Below are positions 8,384 through 21,022 of a DNA stretch of 64,000 nt, in pieces; positions within the stretch are counted from its first letter, which is position 1, and each line of letters begins with the position of its first letter. This stretch comes from Thermodesulfobacteriota bacterium (GTDB lineage: Bacteria; Desulfobacterota_D; UBA1144; Nemesobacterales; Mycalebacteriaceae). The notes below the pieces were generated by a model that saw only the letters and a program-made list of their open reading frames with translations, had not been told where the DNA came from and ran no database searches. The position numbers and the translations under genes were made by a program. Location: positions 832,001 to 896,000 of the forward strand of contig OZ245366.1 in NCBI GenBank assembly GCA_965226585.1. Direction: 5' to 3'.

Positions 8384-10858
8384 TCAGAAATTCATGCCGT
8401 AGCCCGCAAGCACCGCAATTGAGTTGTCTGCGTTTTTGTTGTGTCCGGGTTCGCGGCTTGCCACCGTGCCAAGGCTCAAATTGCCAATCGCGGTTTTCTT
8501 CACCACTTGCGCGCCAATATCTATCTGTCTGCCGGACGGCTCAATGTCTGCTGTCAGCGCGCTGTTCAGTATCGCGCCGCCGGGGGTTCTGCCCGTTGGG
8601 ATTATCAGACCCATGCGACCGCTTTCAACTCTCACCGGAGATGAAACGGAAACTCTGATTGCCGAATCTTCCGAAGGTTTGTGAACAAATCCCATGGAGA
8701 AAGAGCTGGTTGCCAGATGCGACACGTCTTTTATCAGTCCGCCGCCCGTTTCCGGATACGCGATTCCCATTTCCGCGTTTGCGAAGATTTCCCATTTTCC
8801 GAAATCGTAGTCATAGCCGATGCTTGTAAAAACGGTTTCTGAGGAAAACCCGCCAAACGCGCCCTTTGCTGTGGTTCCGAGAGCCGACCTTGCTTCCGAG
8901 ATATAGCCTGAGCGGAAACCGAAAGGCAGTTTTGGCAGGCGGTATGAAACAACCGCTCCCTGAACGGGTCTTTCCCCTCGTTCATCGGATTTGAAAGCGG
9001 AAAATCCGAAGTCGCCGGATTTAACGCCGAAGGAAACGGCGTCTTCAATAAAAGCCAGATGCCCCGCTTTGCTCAAATGCCCTGAGTTTTCAACCTTTCC
9101 TCTCCTCAACGAGACGGAAACTGACGGGATTTGTCCGCTTGCAAAGCCGTTTCCTTCTCCCATTCCCGCGACCGCCCTATTTTCCGCCGTCAGAGACGCC
9201 GTAAGTTCGCCGTTTTGAACGGATATTCCGTCCGCCCGCGCCGCCGTGTCTTCACTTTGCGAAAACTCCAGGAAATTGCTCAAGTAATGTCCGACCGCAG
9301 GTTTTTGATATTTTCCTGCAAATGCTTCGAGCGGATACCAGAACGGAGCTCCGAGCGAGTCAAACGCCGCGATTTCCTGTTCCGCAAACGCGGTTGAAAT
9401 TCCGTCACCAAATGCTTCGCCAGTTTCCACTCGCATACCGGAAACGGGTGAGAACAGCCATCCGTCTTCGGAGTTCAGATTTCCGCCGCCTGATGAGGAA
9501 ACAGATGCCTGTCCAACCGGCTCGGTCGCGGCTCCGACATTGAGGAGTCCTTGCCCGTAGATTGAAGACACGTCATTGGTGCCGTCGCTGTCAGAATCAG
9601 TGTTCGGCGCGTAAGTGCCGGTTTTTGTTGCGGTGGCAAACATTCTGGCAAGCAACTCCACGTTGCTTAACTGACCGCGAAATTGTTGTTTCATTAGCGC
9701 AAGACCGCCCGCAACTATGGGGGCGGCAAGTGATGTGCCTTTATTATCGTCAAAATCCCCAATGGTTCTGCTTATTGTTCCATCAGCAATTTTTGTTGAT
9801 TCAGCAACTCCGATTTCCTCACCCGGAGCGGCTATGCACCACTGGGCGGCAACTCCGCACCTATTGGAAAAATCGGTGATTGTTCCGTTCAGTTGTACGG
9901 CAACAACTGCAACGGAATGGGGGCGCAATTCCGGTATGAGATACATCAATCCGGCGAGCGGACCCGGTGAACTTGCGTCAACCTTTCCGTTTTTACAACT
10001 CTCAATTCCGTTTACTGCGGGGCAAACTGAGTCATTTTCATTTCCGGCTGCCCACACGAAAATTGTTTTCTCCGTGCGTCCTGCTTGTATTTCGGTTGAG
10101 AAATCATCGGCGGAGAGTTCTCCGGCTTCCACGACGTTTACATATAGGGAATCTGAAATAATTCCGTACTGATAGGATTTGTCCTCTTCATTAGGAAATC
10201 CGAGGCTCAAGTTCAATATGTCAACGCTACGAGCAGGATTGAGAGCGGCGGCAGTTGCCGCGTCAAGAGAATCTAAAGATCCAAGGGCAAACATTCTTAT
10301 GTCTGCTCCGGGAGCAACACCTTCGGATGTTGCCGGGACAGGATTGTTGTCCTCATCAACATACAAGTCTGGCCAATCCGCCCGCACTCCGGCAGCTATA
10401 CTGGCAACACTTGTTCCGTGAGAGGTATCACCCTCATCAGCCAAGTCAGAGTTCCTTGATGAACCTCCAAAATATTCAACGGTCATTCTTTTGCCGTTAA
10501 ATGCCGGATGTTCAGTATCCAACCCGCTATCAACAAAACCGATTGTAACTCCGTTGCCCGGTCTGGTTGCCGCATTTACGCCCTTCGTGTTATAGATGTT
10601 CGCGTATGCTCTGTCCAAACTTATGAGACCGAACTCTGCCCCCGCAACTGAGTTTGCCAAATACCCTGTGTAAAAAGTCTCAAGGGTTGAGATGTTTGCG
10701 GATTCCGCTGAACTAGGAGATGCCACTACTGGGTTATTAGGTACGTTCGGTAAAGGCGGAACCGGGCGGGAAGAACTACCGCCTCCTCCTCCCCCGCCCC
10801 CGAAACATCCGGCAAACACAAAAGAAACCGCTACAAGTAGTGGCAATGCTTTTTTCAT
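8384..10858 (-). CDS. S8 subtilase lipoprotein with a probable C-terminal beta-barrel
   Basis: Lipobox FAGC followed by a poly-Gly linker; catalytic FVDSG, SHGTSVASIAAG, oxyanion AAGNE and GTSLAAPIVAG; C-terminal beta-strand region ends in Phe. Confidence 0.9.
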   Translation of the reverse strand: MKKALPLLVAVSFVFAGCFGGGGGGGGSSSRPVPPLPNVPNNPVVASPSSAESANISTLETFYTGYLANSVAGAEFGLISLDRAYANIYNTKGVNAATRPGNGVTIGFVDSGLDTEHPAFNGKRMTVEYFGGSSRNSDLADEGDTSHGTSVASIAAGVRADWPDLYVDEDNNPVPATSEGVAPGADIRMFALGSLDSLDAATAAALNPARSVDILNLSLGFPNEEDKSYQYGIISDSLYVNVVEAGELSADDFSTEIQAGRTEKTIFVWAAGNENDSVCPAVNGIESCKNGKVDASSPGPLAGLMYLIPELRPHSVAVVAVQLNGTITDFSNRCGVAAQWCIAAPGEEIGVAESTKIADGTISRTIGDFDDNKGTSLAAPIVAGGLALMKQQFRGQLSNVELLARMFATATKTGTYAPNTDSDSDGTNDVSSIYGQGLLNVGAATEPVGQASVSSSGGGNLNSEDGWLFSPVSGMRVETGEAFGDGISTAFAEQEIAAFDSLGAPFWYPLEAFAGKYQKPAVGHYLSNFLEFSQSEDTAARADGISVQNGELTASLTAENRAVAGMGEGNGFASGQIPSVSVSLRRGKVENSGHLSKAGHLAFIEDAVSFGVKSGDFGFSAFKSDERGERPVQGAVVSYRLPKLPFGFRSGYISEARSALGTTAKGAFGGFSSETVFTSIGYDYDFGKWEIFANAEMGIAYPETGGGLIKDVSHLATSSFSMGFVHKPSEDSAIRVSVSSPVRVESGRMGLIIPTGRTPGGAILNSALTADIEPSGRQIDIGAQVVKKTAIGNLSLGTVASREPGHNKNADNSIAVLAGYGMNF

Positions 10859-16013: not shown

Positions 16014-16135
16014 TTGGTTTGTGGATTAGGTTATATGATTTGGGGGAAAGGGAAAATGGCGGCGGGTTGAAGTGTCTTTGTTATTACGAGTAGAATAGTA
16101 ACGGGTTGTCAAACAACTCCGGGAGGTTACTTGAT

Positions 16136-16303
16136 ATGTCTTTCACGGCTATTGTGGAGTATTGCAAGGACACGAACCTGTATGTGGGTCATATCCCCGG
16201 CTTTGCGGGAGCCCATTCTCAGGGTAAAACTCTTGATGAGTTGAACGAGAATCTAACCGAAGTGCTGTCTATGTTGCTTGAGGACGGCAGCCCCGGATTC
16301 TGA
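16136..16303 (+). CDS. hicB: HicB-like antitoxin, orphan and possibly C-terminally truncated
   Basis: FTAIVE...LYVGHIPGFAGAHSQGKTLDEL..NL.EVL is a HicB N-domain pattern; GGAGG RBS; no adjacent hicA. Confidence 0.8.
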   Translation: MSFTAIVEYCKDTNLYVGHIPGFAGAHSQGKTLDELNENLTEVLSMLLEDGSPGF

Positions 16304-16317
16304 AACCGCTTCCCCTC

Positions 16318-16418
16318 TGTCATTCCCGCTTCTCTCCGTCATTCCTGCGAAAGCAGGAATCCAGAGTTTCTTTCCGCGATTGTAATACTGGATTCCGTGT
16401 CGGGGCACGGAATGACGG
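16318..16418. repeat. Inverted pair of REP/dRS3-like palindromes, same family as 941-1110
   Basis: CCGTCATTCCTGCGAAAGCAGGAATCCAG (16336-16364) and TAATACTGGATTCCGTGTCGGGGCACGGAATGACGG (16383-16418); extra GTCATTCC half-site at 16319. Confidence 0.9.
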
Positions 16419-16460
16419 GAAAGGCACATCGTGCGTTGCGGAAGTGCTGTCTATTCCGGT

Positions 16461-19400
16461 TTAACTCTTTCGGGGCTTGCGTCTTTCGTTGCCGAGGAAG
16501 TCGTACCAGTCAATCCAGCCTTTGTTTTTGTATGTTTTGTTGGGGTTGGTAGGAATGTCCTTTGGGAAATTTTGTGATTTCACGTATTCGTGCCATTCTT
16601 TGTGACCTTTCAGATTCAGAGATCTTGCATATACTCGGGCTCCTTTGAAAGAACGGTATTCCCTGAGAGTTGTAGCAACATTCCCGGTTCCGAGCCAGTT
16701 GCCCCAATTAGCCCACCCCTGACTTCTGTATATTTGGTCCGGAGCAACAGGAATATCTTTTGGGAAATTGTTTGATTTTGTGTGTTTATTCCATTCTGTG
16801 GAACTTTTCAGGTTCAACCCCCGCGCATACTCTCTCGCTTCCTCAAAACTTCTATACTTTCTAAATCGGGTGGCAAGGGTTCCGGTACCAAGCCAGTCGC
16901 CATAGCCAATCCAACCTCTATCTTTATATTTGTTGTTAGGGTTGGTAGGAATGTCATCTGGAAAATCGGGTGACTTTGTGTGTTTATTCCATTCTGTGGA
17001 ACTTTTCAGTTTCAAACCCCGTGCATATTTCCGTGCCTCCCTGAAAGAGCGATATTCTCTGAGGAAAGAGGCAACAGTTCCAGTTCCGAGCCAATCACCC
17101 ATATTAATCCATCCCTTTTTCCTATAAGTCTGGTTAGGGTTGGCAGGAATATCTTTTGGGAAATTATCTGATTTTGTATGCTCTCTCCATTCTTTTTGAT
17201 TTTTCAACTTGAGAGATCGTGCGTATTTCCGTGCTTTTTCAAAAGAGCGGTATTCAATTAGGAAGGTAGCGACAACTCCAGTTCCTAGCCAGTCGCCCCA
17301 ACTATTCCAGCCTTTGTTTTTGTATGTTTTGTTGGGGTTGGTAGGAATGTCCCTCGGAAAATTATACGATTTTGTGTGCTCTTTCCATTCTTTGTAACTT
17401 TTCAGATTCAGAGATCTAGCATATTTGTGCGCTTCTTTGAAAGAATGGTATTTTCTGAGATATGAAGCAATAGTACCAGTTCCAAGCCAGTCGCCATAAC
17501 CAATCCAACCTTTGTCTTGATATTTTTTGTCAGGGGCAATGGGAATATTCTCTGGGAAATCAGATGATTGTGTGTGCTTACGCCATTCTGAATGACTATT
17601 AAGATTTAAGGATTGCGCATATTCCCTTGCTTTTTCGAATGTTTGATATTCTCTAAATCGGTAAGCAACAAATTCAGTTCCAATCCAATCGCCCATGTTA
17701 ATCCATCCTTTTTTCCTATAAGTCTGGTTAGGTTTGGTAGGAATGTCTTCTGGAAAACTGTCTGATTGCGTGTGCTTGCTCCACTCCTCCCAATTTTTCA
17801 GATTCAGAGATCTAGCATATCCCCGTGCTTCTTTGAAAGAGCGGTATTTCTTGAGAAAGGATGCAACAGTACCAGTTCCGAGCCAGTCGCCCCAGTTAGT
17901 CCAATCCTTAAATGTTAGGTGGGGACTAGCAGGAATATCATCTGGAAGTGTTTGTGCTTTCGTGTATTTGTTCCATTCTGTTCTACTTTTCAGATTCAGA
18001 GATCTAGCATATTCCCGTGCTTCTTTGAAAGAACGATACTTTCTGAGAAAGGTAGCAACATTCCCGGTTCCGAGCCAGTTGCCCCAATTAGCCCACCCCT
18101 GACTTCTGTATATTTGGTCCGGAGCAACAGGAATATCTTTTGGGAAATTGTTTGATTTTGTGTGTTTATTCCATTCTGTGGAACTTTTCAGTTTCAACCC
18201 CCGCGCATACTCTCTCGCCTCCTCAAACCCCCTCCAATTCACTTTCGCCGCTTTCCGCCAAATCTCTGTTTCAATGGATTTGGAAAATTCATTAAAACTG
18301 AGATTCACCCCTGCGGGAACATCGCCACTTATGGAAATGAGTTTTCCCTTGTGTTTCCTGCCTTCCGTAACTGCGCGGAAGTAGTCTTTTATCCTCTCAT
18401 CCTGAGTTGACAGAGCCGTTATCTGACTGGCAATTTTCTTAAACGCCGTGCTTTTTGCGAACTCGTCAAAACTCACCCCGTTTGGCACAACAATCGGCAA
18501 AAGTATGTAGCCCTTCTCTTTTCCCGCCGATGGACGCATCGCCCTTCCCGCCGCTTGCACAATATCCACAACACTCTGCTTCGGGTCAGCAAACAAAACA
18601 CAATCAATCGCCGGAACATCAACACCCTCCGTTAAACATCTGGCGTTTGTTATAAGCGAGCGTCTGGACTTCTCAAAATCATGCATAACCTCCGTTCGCT
18701 GTCCGGTGGAGAGTTCACTTGAAATGTGAAAGTTCTCAATTCCCGTTTTAAGAACCCGCGCTTTCAAAAGTTCGTTTTGCTGTAATTCAAAATCCTTTGC
18801 CGACCGTATGCTCCGGTGAAAAGAAACCGCATGTTTTATCCGGTGCTTTTTGAAAACTTTTTCAAGCGCAATCCCCGCCGCAAGAGACGCGGATTCCTGC
18901 GTTTTGAGTTCCCGCGAATGGTCTTTGACAAAACGGTTCTTCTTCACAATGTCCCGTATCTGCGGGTCGCCAATCAAAAGCGTTAAAATCTCGTAGTCGC
19001 AAATAATGCCGTCATCAATGGCTTGTTTGAATGTGAGTTGATAAAAACAGTCGCCGTAGACTCTTTTGTCATCCATTGAGAGAACCTCTTCGTTTTTCCC
19101 GTGTAAAACTCTTTCTGTTGCCGTCATAAAAAGCCGTTTGCTGATTTCCAGTTTTCTGTCGTCAAGCAAGGTCGCAAAAGCGGAACTCTTTTCACCAACC
19201 GTTTTATGCGCTTCATCCAAAATACAAAGGTCAATTTTCCGTCCGCTTTTCTTCGCCGCAACAGCAAGGCGCGGACTGCTCTGATAGGTTGTGAAAATCA
19301 CCTTCGGAGCGGATGTTTTTCTTTTCAGAAAGTCCGCAATCTCTTCTTCTTTCGTTGTTGTGGGAATGCCCGTTTCGTATGTGCTTGAAACAAAACTGTC

Positions 19401-20216
19401 CACCTTGCCAACCGTTTCATCACTGCACACACAAAGCCAGTCAGGGGTTATGCCGCCCGCAACATATTCGCGAGTCCAATCTTTAACGCTCTGCCGTATC
19501 AACATAAGACTCGGAACGGCAAGAATTATCGTTTTTGCCCCAAGCGATTCCGCCGCCCAGAAAGCCGTGAGACTTTTGCCGGACGCGCACGGCATAATCA
19601 TTCTGCCCCGCCGGTTTTTCTCATCAAGGTAATGCGCGCGGATGTTCTTTACCGCCTCTTTCTGGTGTTTTCTCGGTTTGCGCGCTTTTGGTGTGTGTGA
19701 TTTATTCGCGCAGTTCGCCCTGATTGCCGCCCAGTCTTCGGTCTCAAGTTCCAGCCATCGGGAAAGCCCTATCTCCACAACATTTTTGCCAAGCAGTTTC
19801 CTTTTCCGCACAGGTTTTAATGTTGTGTGAGCAACAACACCCAGCGTTATTCCCCTGCAGTGTGTAAAAGACAGGTGCGCAAACTTTGCCAAATCCCTTG
19901 TATTCAGGGCAGTTTCTTTGTCAGACCTGTATTTCGCCTGTATTGCCCAGAACTCTCCGCCGTGCGTCTCGGCTATTAAGTCTATGCCCTCATCATTTGC
20001 GGGCAGATTCAGTTTCTTTGCCACATCTCGCGGAACATCGGCGAGCAGCCACACACTCGACAGTTTTGTCCGGTATTCAGGGTGAACAGTCAGGTATGAC
20101 TGAACCAGTTTTTCAAAAAGGTCGCCCTTTTCTTTCGTGGCGGCGAGTCCGTCCGCATAAGAGACAAATTGCTCCCAGTTGGAACATCTACCGAGGAATT
20201 TTGAGGCGTTTTCCAT
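16461..20216 (-). CDS. Mrr-type nuclease + SF2 helicase/ATPase + nine 66-aa tandem repeats (candidate defence nuclease-translocase)
   Basis: KGDLFE...DEGIDLIA...WAIQAKY (Mrr-like PD-(D/E)xK); helicase motifs CASGKS, TTYQS, LDEAH, MTAT, TEGVDVP, QAAGRAMR; aa 662-1251 are repeats. Confidence 0.88.
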   Translation of the reverse strand: MENASKFLGRCSNWEQFVSYADGLAATKEKGDLFEKLVQSYLTVHPEYRTKLSSVWLLADVPRDVAKKLNLPANDEGIDLIAETHGGEFWAIQAKYRSDKETALNTRDLAKFAHLSFTHCRGITLGVVAHTTLKPVRKRKLLGKNVVEIGLSRWLELETEDWAAIRANCANKSHTPKARKPRKHQKEAVKNIRAHYLDEKNRRGRMIMPCASGKSLTAFWAAESLGAKTIILAVPSLMLIRQSVKDWTREYVAGGITPDWLCVCSDETVGKVDSFVSSTYETGIPTTTKEEEIADFLKRKTSAPKVIFTTYQSSPRLAVAAKKSGRKIDLCILDEAHKTVGEKSSAFATLLDDRKLEISKRLFMTATERVLHGKNEEVLSMDDKRVYGDCFYQLTFKQAIDDGIICDYEILTLLIGDPQIRDIVKKNRFVKDHSRELKTQESASLAAGIALEKVFKKHRIKHAVSFHRSIRSAKDFELQQNELLKARVLKTGIENFHISSELSTGQRTEVMHDFEKSRRSLITNARCLTEGVDVPAIDCVLFADPKQSVVDIVQAAGRAMRPSAGKEKGYILLPIVVPNGVSFDEFAKSTAFKKIASQITALSTQDERIKDYFRAVTEGRKHKGKLISISGDVPAGVNLSFNEFSKSIETEIWRKAAKVNWRGFEEAREYARGLKLKSSTEWNKHTKSNNFPKDIPVAPDQIYRSQGWANWGNWLGTGNVATFLRKYRSFKEAREYARSLNLKSRTEWNKYTKAQTLPDDIPASPHLTFKDWTNWGDWLGTGTVASFLKKYRSFKEARGYARSLNLKNWEEWSKHTQSDSFPEDIPTKPNQTYRKKGWINMGDWIGTEFVAYRFREYQTFEKAREYAQSLNLNSHSEWRKHTQSSDFPENIPIAPDKKYQDKGWIGYGDWLGTGTIASYLRKYHSFKEAHKYARSLNLKSYKEWKEHTKSYNFPRDIPTNPNKTYKNKGWNSWGDWLGTGVVATFLIEYRSFEKARKYARSLKLKNQKEWREHTKSDNFPKDIPANPNQTYRKKGWINMGDWLGTGTVASFLREYRSFREARKYARGLKLKSSTEWNKHTKSPDFPDDIPTNPNNKYKDRGWIGYGDWLGTGTLATRFRKYRSFEEAREYARGLNLKSSTEWNKHTKSNNFPKDIPVAPDQIYRSQGWANWGNWLGTGNVATTLREYRSFKGARVYARSLNLKGHKEWHEYVKSQNFPKDIPTNPNKTYKNKGWIDWYDFLGNERRKPRKS
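16464..18233 (-). repeat. Intragenic tandem array: nine units of 198 bp (unit 2 is 192 bp; the last unit has a divergent end)
   Basis: Consensus RSF.EAR.YARSL.LKS..EW..HTKS..FP.DIP..P...Y...GW...GDWLGTG..A..LR.Y; identical DNA blocks at offsets 1380 and 792 and a near-identical block at offset 594. Confidence 0.97.
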
Positions 20217-20236: not shown

Positions 20237-21022
20237 CTACCCCATCTTTTTCTCATTCGCCTTCAACACCTGCTTTGCGGTGGTGGCGAGTTCGGAGTTC
20301 GGGTCTTTTGAAATTACGGCTTCAAAATCCGCTTTCGCTTTCGCGAATTCTCCCAGTTTCTGAAACTCAGTCGCCCTCGCGAAAAGAGCTTTTGTAAATT
20401 CAGGATTTACCTCAAACGCCTTGCCGAAATCCTCAGCCGCCCTCTTGTTGTTGCCGAGGCTGTCATACACATGCCCCCTGCTGTATAAACTCTCAAAATC
20501 ACGGGGATTTATTTCAACCGCCCTGTCGTAGTCCTTCAGAGCGTTGTCATAGTCTCTCAAAAGGTTGTGATAGGTGGTCGCCCGGTTGTAAAACGCTTCG
20601 CCGTTTTCCGGCTCCATCTCAATCGCCTTGTCATAATCCGCTATGGCAAGTTTGTATTTTCCAAGCCGCCCGTAGGCGGTTCCCCTGCTGACATACGTTC
20701 CGGCAAAATCAGGCATAATCTCTATGACCTTGTTGAAGTCATCTATCGCCGGGCTGTGGTCTCCAAGATCCACAAGCAGCGAACCCCTGTTGTAAAACGC
20801 CTGAGCGTATCCGTCTTTGAGTTCAACGGCTTTTGTGTAACTGGCAATCGCTTCGCGCAGTTTGCCCTTCATGGACAGCGCGACCCCAAGGTTGTATCGC
20901 ACATCCGGATGCTCCGGATTCAGTTCAATCGCCTTTTCATAACTTTCTATCGCCGCATCCCACTTTCCGGAGCCCGCGCTCTCGTTACCTTTTTTGAAAA
21001 AACCGTCAAAATTCTCACTCAT
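20237..21022 (-). CDS. TPR-repeat protein (about seven TPRs)
   Basis: Repeated A.YN.G.....G....A..DY.KAIE..P pattern. Confidence 0.93.
   Translation of the reverse strand: MSENFDGFFKKGNESAGSGKWDAAIESYEKAIELNPEHPDVRYNLGVALSMKGKLREAIASYTKAVELKDGYAQAFYNRGSLLVDLGDHSPAIDDFNKVIEIMPDFAGTYVSRGTAYGRLGKYKLAIADYDKAIEMEPENGEAFYNRATTYHNLLRDYDNALKDYDRAVEINPRDFESLYSRGHVYDSLGNNKRAAEDFGKAFEVNPEFTKALFARATEFQKLGEFAKAKADFEAVISKDPNSELATTAKQVLKANEKKMG

What the first reader, a model, noticed from the sequence alone, without database searches (positions are those of the whole stretch)
16461..20216. Candidate repeat-programmed nuclease-helicase: Type ISP-like Mrr + SF2 motor whose MTase/target-recognition part is replaced by nine modular 66-aa repeats
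Seen: the N-terminus has an Mrr-like nuclease (GDLFE..DEGID..IQAK), followed by a complete SF2 motif set, then aa 662-1251 as nine tandem units. The units share a near-invariant scaffold (F.EA..YA..L.L, EW, P.DIP..P, GW, W.G). Variation is concentrated at fixed positions: 17-19 (SST,SRT,NWE,SHS,SYK,NQK,SST,SST,GHK), 36-41 (VAPDQI,ASPHLT,TKPNQT,IAPDKK,TNPNKT,ANPNQT,TNPNNK,VAPDQI,TNPNKT) and 48-50 (ANW,TNW,INM,IGY,NSW,INM,IGY,ANW,IDW). No methyltransferase lies in or beside the gene. Established: Type ISP enzymes (LlaGI/LlaBIII) are Mrr-SF2-MTase-TRD. From memory, the unit resembles the uncharacterised Pfam integrase repeat (INT_rpt). Inference: the basic, Trp-rich array is a TALE-like modular reader of DNA sequence or DNA modification that loads an ATP-driven nuclease, which would make this a reprogrammable antiphage system.
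Basis: partly seen in the sequence, partly recalled or inferred. Interest (0 to 1): 0.9.

Follow-up and report, generated by a model that had tools for sequence, protein, structure and literature searches.

The report
Nuclease-motor with swappable repeat reader
This bacterial gene joins the DNA-cutting and ATP-motor half of a restriction enzyme to nine tandem repeats that are replaced wholesale between near-identical alleles and vary most at a few fixed positions, so the repeats are likely an untested, modular target reader that would aim the enzyme at foreign DNA without a protective methylase.

Summary
The 1,251-aa ORF carries an intact Mrr nuclease and SF2 motor related to Type ISP LlaBIII (E 1e-64), then nine INT_rpt (PF14882) units, with no coupler, methylase or TRD. 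The architecture is widespread: all 120 best matches to the nuclease-motor half carry the repeat at the same place. The array behaves like a specificity module. An allele 98% identical in the enzyme half has a different 6-unit array (best unit identity 55-64%), and 10 of 11 such pairs share no unit at 80% or more. Positions 19/20/23, 38/40/41 and 62/63 stay hypervariable, covary, favour R/Q/N, and show pN/pS 2.8 in the genus, but only 1.15 and 0.87 in metagenome sets. It is not TALE-like in the strict sense: the residue vocabulary is open, more like zinc fingers. The same repeat sits on GmtZ integrases and helicase-methyltransferases. In a sister species the same slot holds a Septu defence system. 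DNA binding, sequence reading and defence are all untested. This scan noted the family before on other genomes. Verdict: an unstudied variant of the Type ISP chassis with a candidate new modular reader.

The parts
16461..20216 (-). Whole gene, 1,251 aa: Mrr nuclease + SF2 motor + nine INT_rpt units
19722..20138 (-). Mrr-family nuclease, about aa 27-165; E35, D75, D79, Q93 and K95 align with the LlaBIII nuclease motif
   Evidence: D75, D79, Q93, K95 invariant in 95 of 95 aligned family members, E35 in 94 of 95 with one gap
18357..19688 (-). SF2 ATPase/translocase, about aa 177-620. Walker A has Ala at position 211 where most have Gly (Ala in 6 of 95). DEAH, TAT, motif V and motif VI are intact
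18237..18356 (-). About 40-aa linker in place of the Type ISP coupler-MTase-TRD; allele swaps begin just after it
   Evidence: no ISP_coupler, N6_Mtase or Type_ISP_C hit while two control ISP proteins hit all three; swap point
16464..18236 (-). Array of nine INT_rpt (PF14882) units, aa 661-1251: unit 1 18039-18236, 2 17847-18038 (64 aa), 3 17649-17846, 4 17451-17648, 5 17253-17450, 6 17055-17252, 7 16857-17054, 8 16659-16856 (93% nt identical to unit 1), 9 16464-16658 (cap and basic tail)
   Evidence: predicted helices per unit at 4-13, 19-26, 39-42, 51-55
20237..21022 (-). Conserved host TPR gene ending 20 nt upstream on the same strand (likely read-through transcription); the slot behind it holds Septu PtuAB in G004 and no insert in G001
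16337..16420 (.). 84-bp palindromic, REP-like element just downstream of the stop; 143 similar hits of 60 bp or more in the genome

Best explanation
It is a single-gene nuclease-motor whose enzyme half comes from the Type ISP restriction lineage and whose swappable repeat array likely reads DNA sequence, so that it would load the ATP motor on foreign DNA and cut it without a methylase. Shown: the domain order, intact catalytic motifs, no coupler, methylase or TRD, wholesale array exchange between near-identical alleles, and fixed hypervariable positions. Inferred: each 66-aa unit presents three short variable patches (start of helix 2: 19/20/23; start of helix 3: 37-42; linker: 59-63) on one face and contacts a few base pairs, in the manner of zinc fingers rather than TALEs. 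Inferred by analogy with LlaBIII/LlaGI: binding switches on the ATPase, the enzyme translocates, and cutting needs two converging enzymes. Inferred: the host is spared because the composite site is too long to occur in its genome (9 units at 2 bp each gives 4e-5 chance sites in 1.48 Mb), and strains change targets by recombining units and whole arrays.
For: Enzyme half: LlaBIII E 1e-64; nuclease and helicase motifs invariant in 94-95 of 95 members. Position: 120 of 120 best matches to aa 1-655 carry at least one unit right after the motor, and none lists an MTase domain; the array-bearing motors group apart from four ISP-like proteins in a quick tree. Allele swapping: P0001/P0121 are 98.3% identical over the first 650 aa, but have 9 versus 6 units with best unit identity 55-64%; P0006/P0053 are 99.7% and 48-64%; 10 of 11 pairs at 95% or more with at least 4 units each share no unit at 80% or more. 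Fixed geometry: 895 of 1,132 spacings are exactly 66 or 71 aa. Positions 19, 20, 23, 38, 40, 41, 62, 63 differ almost as much within one protein as between proteins (ratio 0.89-0.99), while other surface positions are homogenised within a protein. In the genus, pN/pS at these 8 sites (defined without the genus) is 2.78, against 0.45 and 0.14 elsewhere, with background pS (9 disjoint pairs, Fisher p 0.002). The sites covary across the unit (19-23, 19-51, 38-40, 38-41, 59-62, 19-63, 40-51) and hold 31-39% R/Q/N and 4-12% D/E, against 18% and 27% at other variable positions. Mean net charge is +3.8 per unit. The repeat also occurs on other DNA-acting enzymes: 8 units on a VPA1269/GmtZ protein, from a system that inserts into system-specific sites tested as 30-bp sequences (bioRxiv 10.1101/2023.03.28.534373, passages). 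Defence context: Septu in the same slot in G004, defence-type neighbours at 8 of 33 loci scanned, three different genomic slots within one genus, and no DNA-methylase motif in 180 ORFs within 4 kb of 35 loci.
Against: No binding, cleavage or phage data exist. The selection signal is weaker outside the genus: pN/pS 1.15 (18 pairs, p 0.43) and 0.87 (66 more diverged pairs, uncorrected), which relaxed constraint would also give. The vocabulary is open (899 distinct 19/20/23 triplets in 1,909 units), and 20-25% of residues at the variable sites are hydrophobic, aromatic or small, which also fits protein binding. It is unclear how random recombination would find a 20-30 bp phage site; a 3-unit member exists (G001), for which 3 bp per unit would give about 11 host sites. 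The coupler that may relay target binding to the ATPase in ISP enzymes (PMC7049714, passages) is absent, and the ATPase hairpin loop is about 8 aa shorter than in LlaBIII. The 8-of-33 defence-neighbour count has no background control, and many contigs are short. The model's pTM is 0.59, so the arrangement between units is uncertain.
Confidence: 0.5

Rival explanations
1. Modification-dependent (Type IV-like) restriction: the units bind modified bases or backbone marks in varying sequence contexts, as the SRA domain does on the nuclease-helicase SauUSI, so no methylase is needed because the host lacks the mark.
For: Same logic of nuclease + SF2 + C-terminal reader without methylase as SauUSI (PMC12707154, passage). 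It solves self-protection for short arrays such as the 3-unit member. Units are rich in Trp/Tyr, and position 51 alternates W/M/Y/F. There are weak PADLOC matches of the motor to PbeA and Type IV models.
Against: No SRA, EVE or PUA domain. Most aromatic residues are invariant, as expected of a core. Eight or more hypervariable positions per unit and whole-array swaps exceed what a handful of modifications would need. The GmtZ fusion points to sequence targets.
Confidence: 0.17
2. The array is a hypervariable protein sensor (like LRR or TPR arrays) that binds phage proteins and then switches on the nuclease-motor as an abortive-infection effector.
For: Open vocabulary with F/Y/W/V/L at the variable sites; allele swapping fits any arms race; no methylase is needed if the enzyme is silent until triggered; stand-alone array genes exist.
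Against: Strong net positive charge, R/Q/N enrichment with D/E depletion, strict unit spacing, and fusion to DNA-acting enzymes in the partners that could be named (Mrr-SF2, other SF2, SF2-methyltransferase, GmtZ integrase family).
Confidence: 0.13
3. The array is a non-specific DNA clamp or processivity factor, and its variation is relaxed constraint plus gene conversion; the enzyme cuts DNA structures or ends rather than sites.
For: pN/pS near 1 in both metagenome sets; repeat number ranges 3-12 in 30 capped members; repeats recombine easily.
Against: Other surface positions are homogenised within a protein while these are not; pN/pS 2.78 with background pS in the genus; covariation among the variable sites; near-identical alleles carry wholly different arrays.
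Confidence: 0.1
4. A selfish, homing-type or addiction gene: the array reads a long site in the empty allele or a rival element, and the nuclease promotes the gene's own spread.
For: Single gene, no methylase, three different slots in one genus, and tight placement behind housekeeping genes; copies on viral contigs; the repeat also serves mobile GMT islands.
Against: Alleles at one slot should keep one target, yet the three copies at gyrB-proS have different arrays. The genus copies form one clade. ISP-type cleavage happens far from the site (PMC4872093, passages), which suits homing poorly. The same slots hold unrelated cargo such as Septu.
Confidence: 0.08

Closest known systems
Type ISP restriction-modification enzymes LlaBIII (PDB 4xqk) and LlaGI (PDB 5ffj)
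   Same: N-terminal Mrr nuclease and SF2 ATPase in one chain, aa 27-639, E 1e-64; nuclease acids, Q-x-K, DEAH and the motif V arginine are kept.
   Different: No coupler, N6-adenine methylase or TRD; replaced by 3-16 INT_rpt units; no self-marking activity.
Pfam PF14882 INT_rpt and the GMT integrase GmtZ (VPA1269 family)
   Same: Same repeat: above the Pfam cut-off; 8 units found on a plasmid VPA1269 protein with the family profile.
   Different: Here the units are 66 aa (71 in a second class) with a conserved linker and sit C-terminal to a nuclease-motor; GmtZ units are about 58 aa and N-terminal. The passages read of the GMT preprint assign no role to the repeats.
SauUSI-type Type IV restriction enzymes
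   Same: Nuclease + SF2 helicase + C-terminal reader, no methylase, ATP-dependent (PMC12707154 passage).
   Different: Mrr rather than PLD nuclease; a variable repeat array rather than one SRA domain; modification dependence unknown.
TALE/STAR repeat proteins and C2H2 zinc-finger arrays (works-like comparison)
   Same: Tandem units of fixed length with conserved scaffold, conserved linker and variable positions.
   Different: Unit is 66/71 aa with at least 8 variable positions and an open vocabulary (top four pairs 15-25%), unlike the two-residue TALE code (recalled). No zinc-ligand pattern. No INT_rpt mention in the main text of the DNA-binding repeat survey PMC11417379 (supplement unreadable).
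HA (PF03457) repeat helicases
   Same: SF2 helicases with small helical C-terminal repeats thought to bind DNA (PMC12191111 and bioRxiv 10.1101/2024.11.13.623437, passages); P0036 carries one HA unit followed by eight INT_rpt units.
   Different: The window's array has no HA hit; it is a different Pfam family.

Membership tests
Type ISP R-M enzyme | N-terminal Mrr-family nuclease | tested here: met
   Mrr_cat_2 E 6.5e-14; catalytic residues align with LlaBIII and are conserved
Type ISP R-M enzyme | SF2 helicase-like ATPase | tested here: met
   ResIII and Helicase_C; motifs conserved in 95 members, Walker A Gly-to-Ala variant in 6 of 95
Type ISP R-M enzyme | Helical coupler domain (PF22240) | tested here: not met
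   No hit (listing to E 1); two control ISP proteins hit at 1e-44 or better; only about 40 aa lie between motor and array
Type ISP R-M enzyme | N6-adenine methyltransferase in the same chain | tested here: not met
   No hit; controls hit N6_Mtase; the rest of the chain is repeats
Type ISP R-M enzyme | Type ISP TRD (PF18135) | tested here: not met
   No hit; controls hit at 1e-74 or better
Type ISP R-M enzyme | Cleavage on collision of two enzymes from head-to-head sites | not testable with these tools
   Needs purified enzyme; described for LlaBIII in PMC7049714 (passages)
INT_rpt (PF14882) proteins | Score above the Pfam gathering cut-off, in tandem copies | tested here: met
   48.6 and 59.2 bits versus 26.5; Atlas features agree at 0.92-0.93; nine units
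TALE / TALE-like | 33-35 aa unit (recalled) | tested here: not met
   66 aa; no TAL-effector Pfam hit
TALE / TALE-like | Variation confined to one di-residue with a small vocabulary (recalled) | tested here: not met
   At least 8 hypervariable positions; 141-254 distinct pairs per position pair; top four cover 15-25%
TALE / TALE-like | Superhelical helical-hairpin fold | tested here: inconclusive
   Model pLDDT 94, pTM 0.59; see Tried and rejected for the fold searches
TALE / TALE-like | Modular sequence-specific DNA binding | not testable with these tools
   No protein-DNA folding or binding assay available
Type IV (SauUSI-like) modification-dependent nuclease | Nuclease + helicase + reader with no cognate methylase | tested here: met
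Type IV (SauUSI-like) modification-dependent nuclease | SRA/EVE/PUA-type modified-base reader | tested here: not met
   No such Pfam hit
Type IV (SauUSI-like) modification-dependent nuclease | Cleavage depends on DNA modification | not testable with these tools
   Needs assay
Any PADLOC 2.0 defence system | Full-length match to a system model | tested here: not met
   Best hits cover only the first about 645-701 of about 1,600 model positions of REase-MTase models; the array has one hit at E 0.004
Helix-turn-helix DNA-binding domains | HTH fold with variable residues at positions 1, 2, 5 of the recognition helix (recalled) | tested here: inconclusive
   Positions 19, 20, 23 are positions 1, 2, 5 of predicted helix 2; see Tried and rejected for the fold searches

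The most novel reading that the evidence does not exclude
INT_rpt is a previously unrecognised natural family of modular, re-programmable DNA readers. Its units recombine to spell long target sites and are bolted onto different engines (Type ISP-derived nuclease-motor, helicase-methyltransferase, tyrosine integrase). The window's gene would then be a methylase-free restriction system that separates self from non-self by protein-encoded long-site recognition, with allele swapping serving as a protein-level counterpart of CRISPR spacer turnover.
Probability: 0.3. Interest if true: 0.92.

Novelty: new variant of a known kind. Interest (0 to 1): 0.75.

Why it matters
Known natural programmable DNA-binding repeat scaffolds are few (TALEs, zinc fingers and some relatives). 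This family has at least 2,585 proteins, a confidently predicted unit, fixed spacing and defined variable positions. It also offers a natural experiment: pairs of alleles with the same enzyme half and different arrays. If the array reads sequence, it gives a new scaffold for targeting and a form of restriction that needs no methylase, and it would suggest how GMT islands pick their sites. If it reads modifications or proteins instead, it is still an undescribed, widespread candidate defence family.

Tried and rejected
Single-sequence AlphaFold of units 2-5 failed (pLDDT 38.5) and was not used. Fold searches with the good model gave no Foldseek PDB match at E <= 0.001 and best VIA Z 2.6 among 48,161 chains (Sf6 small terminase at Z 2.5, rmsd 2.9, 50 aligned, is within noise). 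A five-unit model was searched, not a single unit, so this neither names nor excludes a fold. BFVD gave one unnamed match at E 3.5e-6 and weaker giant-virus helicases. The genome search with family PF14882 found nothing, even in this genome and in 14 controls, so it is uninformative; a profile built from the window's units was used instead. The genome-contig scan returned one unrelated locus. No RNA holder was listed among sequencing runs. Runs X4 and X5 have almost no cover over the array; lack of cover alone proves nothing. The promoter scan found fewer sites than shuffles and none on the gene's strand. Weak Pfam hits GIDA_C_1st, SpmSyn_N and ExoI_C/Exonuc_X-T_C on the repeats are short partial matches and were treated as spurious. 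The careful tree did not finish; only the quick tree, with long-branch warnings, is quoted. Pfam at E <= 1e-10 could miss divergent methylases (controls score about 1e-7), so a motif scan was added. Literature: searches for INT_rpt, integrase repeat/PF14882/PHINT_rpt/IPR028229, TALE-like + helicase, Type ISP + Mrr + repeats and modular repeat + antiphage + helicase showed no study of this protein family. The only INT_rpt passage read is a table row in PMC8078820; two virome papers that hold PF14882 were seen as listings only. Chand et al. 2015 was not held. The supplements of PMC11417379 and the GMT preprint's insertion-site table could not be seen and may bear on novelty and on the code test. 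Rejected: assembly artefact (units are 58-79% identical apart from 1 and 8, and contigs of runs X1/X3 match the array without differences; these runs may be the source sample); broken Type ISP remnant (catalytic residues and architecture conserved across 120 proteins); strict TALE code.


Full report
Observation. The ORF at 16461-20216 (-) encodes 1,251 aa. Pfam finds Mrr_cat_2 (44-134), ResIII (180-367), Helicase_C (451-562) and INT_rpt above its cut-off. The closest solved sequences are the Type ISP enzymes LlaBIII (aa 27-639, E 1e-64) and LlaGI. A 198-bp tandem period covers 16512-18196. There are nine units from aa 661: seven of 66 aa, one of 64 aa, and a terminal cap. Among units 1-8 only 1 and 8 are near-identical (93% nt); the other pairs are 58-77%, and unit 9 is at most 79% identical to any other. 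The gene is the only copy of either half in the 1.48-Mb single-contig genome. Names given to relatives at 71-72% identity suggest a Candidatus Dadabacteria host (inferred).

The enzyme half is intact and always paired with this repeat. In 95 aligned family members the nuclease residues D75, D79, Q93 and K95 and the helicase GK, DEAH, TAT and motif VI residues are invariant or nearly so. The window's Walker A has Ala for the first Gly, as do 6 of 95 members including three genus relatives, so it is a natural variant of unknown effect. A search with the array gave 2,585 proteins at E <= 0.001 among 7,999 candidates scored. Of the 120 listed, 93 have Mrr + SF2 + 6-16 units, and 895 of 1,132 unit spacings are exactly 66 or 71 aa. 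A search with aa 1-655 only, which does not select for repeats, gave 120 best hits that all carry at least one unit after the motor and list no methylase domain. Of these, 15 have one unit and may be cut short; the 30 with a clear terminal cap have 3-12 units, mode 5-6. True Type ISP proteins in the same order are only 33% identical and carry coupler, N6-methylase and TRD. A quick tree separates four ISP-like rows from the array-bearing motors, except the HA-bearing P0036, with long-branch warnings. So this is an old lineage, not a broken ISP gene, and it fails three defining ISP features.

The array behaves as a specificity module. P0121 differs from the window protein at only 12 of the first 660 aa but has six units whose best identity to any window unit is 59-64%, and it ends in nearly the same cap. 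Among 13 pairs at 95% identity or more in the enzyme half, two were dropped for having fewer than four units; 10 of the other 11 share no unit at 80% or more, and the exception is P0005/P0027. The pairs are not all independent (three involve the same trio). This fits a different array but may be the same strain as P0121. Genus copies have 9, 3, 9, 6 and 8 units, and on average units resemble their neighbours in the gene more than those of sister species (76% versus 66% nt). Exchange of target-recognition domains is known in restriction systems (PMC3077401, listing and abstract start only).

Where the variation lies. Over 1,252 units, positions 19, 20, 23, 38, 40, 41, 62 and 63 are almost as different between neighbours in one protein as between proteins (ratio 0.89-0.99). 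Surface positions such as 9, 13, 44 and 66 are homogenised within a protein (0.63-0.77). With these eight positions defined without four genus proteins, recently duplicated unit pairs in the genus show pN/pS 2.78 there against 0.45 and 0.14 elsewhere, at background pS (9 disjoint pairs from 4 of 5 genes; p 0.002). Metagenome loci give 1.15 (18 pairs, 12 of 112 genes; p 0.43) and 0.87 (66 more diverged pairs). Positive selection is therefore supported in the genus and not shown elsewhere. The variable sites covary across the unit (19-51, 40-51, 19-63, 38-41), suggesting one surface. They are richer in R/Q/N (31-39% versus 18%) and poorer in D/E (4-12% versus 27%) than other variable positions. 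In G003 and G005 three short blocks (18-24, 37-42, 59-64) recur letter for letter in new combinations, so recombination shuffles parts of units. AlphaFold with a 103-row alignment folds units 2-6 at pLDDT 94 and pTM 0.59, with helices at 4-13, 19-26, 39-42 and 51-55 of each unit. Positions 19, 20 and 23 are the first, second and fifth residues of helix 2, as in helix-turn-helix recognition helices (recalled; a lead only). Against a TALE-type code, the four commonest pairs cover 15-25% of units at any position pair, and there are 899 distinct 19/20/23 triplets in 1,909 units (the set includes some duplicate records).

Context. In the phylum only this genus matched the array (5 of 107 genomes, including this one; 4 of 5 sister genomes). 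The gene sits behind gyrB in G001, G003 and G004, beside fumC in G005, and behind the TPR gene here. The slot behind the TPR gene holds Septu PtuAB in G004 and no insert in G001. Of 35 metagenome and viral loci with the gene (three near-duplicates left out), 33 had neighbours scanned (71 proteins). Eight have a defence-type neighbour: Septu, GmrSD, AbiU2-HEPN, SoFic, PDC-S15, PDC-S37, RmrA-like and AIPR; the PDC-S37 gene is a third neighbour added by hand. There is no background control. None of 180 ORFs within 4 kb has a DNA-methylase motif, though many contigs are short. The same repeat is fused to, or encoded as several separate genes beside, an SF2 helicase with a Methyltransf_8 domain, often on large viral contigs. 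It also forms eight N-terminal units of a VPA1269/GmtZ protein. GMT islands insert only into their own site, tested as 30-bp sequences, but the passages read assign no role to the repeats (bioRxiv 10.1101/2023.03.28.534373).

Mechanism. In LlaBIII and LlaGI, target binding by the methylase-TRD unit switches on the ATPase, and DNA is cut when two translocating enzymes converge from head-to-head sites (PMC7049714 and PMC4872093, passages). The most likely reading (0.5) is that the array takes over target binding, reads a composite DNA site through several residues per unit, and spares the host because the site is absent: nine units at 2 bp each predict 4e-5 chance sites, three units at 3 bp about 11. 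The weak point is how recombination finds long sites present in invaders, and how short arrays avoid self. The rivals are modification-dependent restriction like SauUSI (0.17; PMC12707154 passage), protein sensing (0.13), a non-specific clamp (0.1) and a selfish element (0.08). None of these steps has been tested experimentally.

Novelty. Both halves are catalogued, but seven literature searches aimed at the repeat, the architecture or its relatives showed no study of the repeat's function or of this architecture. The library lacks most subscription papers, and some supplements could not be read. Earlier AI notes of this scan describe the same family on other genomes; they are not independent support. 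The within-species whole-array swap, the selection test with an independently defined site set and the vocabulary count were computed here. Verdict: new variant of a known kind, interest 0.75, with a 0.3 chance that the repeat is a new class of programmable DNA reader.

Noticed in passing
window 16337-16420 (also 946-973 and 1029-1109): 84-bp palindromic REP-like element folding into a three-arm hairpin (z -3.5), with 143 similar hits of 60 bp or more in a 1.48-Mb genome.
   Followed up: partly
window 16106-16303 (+): Small solitary HicB/UPF0150-like ORF between the HAD gene and the REP-like element, absent from this slot in the four relatives read; no HicA partner seen.
   Followed up: no
L024/L098:7983-12209, L058, L101, L104, L092, P0085; split form L027, L028, L047, L107/L108: Second architecture: INT_rpt array + unknown 250-aa region + SF2 helicase + Methyltransf_8 (nucleomethylin-like, PDB 2zfu E 2e-22). 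It is either fused or split into one enzyme gene beside 3-6 separate array genes, several on viral contigs of 150-500 kb. It may be a multi-reader version of the same targeting idea.
   Followed up: partly
L135:5806-8220: Plasmid VPA1269/GmtZ protein has eight homologous units at about 58-aa spacing; GMT insertion sites offer a computational test of a residue-to-base code.
   Followed up: partly
L134:1651-3683 (G004): Septu PtuA/PtuB pair in the slot behind the TPR gene that the window's gene occupies.
   Followed up: yes
L018:7591-11337 (G003): Four of nine units use a shortened linker (64-65 aa spacing, lacking positions 62-63), showing a second linker geometry within one array.
   Followed up: no
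P0036; L107:4824-6140: INT_rpt units mixed with other small putative DNA-binding modules: one HA domain in P0036, DUF723/DUF4379 treble-clef hits in L107.
   Followed up: no
L019:257-2491 (G004): SspB-like gene and a cysteine desulfurase-like gene, suggesting a phosphorothioation locus, about 4.6 kb upstream of the G004 copy; not seen beside the other copies.
   Followed up: no
window 8384-10858 (-): 824-aa lipoprotein with subtilisin-like motifs and a C-terminal beta-rich region, autotransporter-like by eye; not scanned.
   Followed up: no
L130, L132, L133: Ankyrin-repeat-like secreted proteins occupy nearby slots between the TPR gene and lipB in G002, G003 and G005, by eye from the translations.
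   Followed up: no
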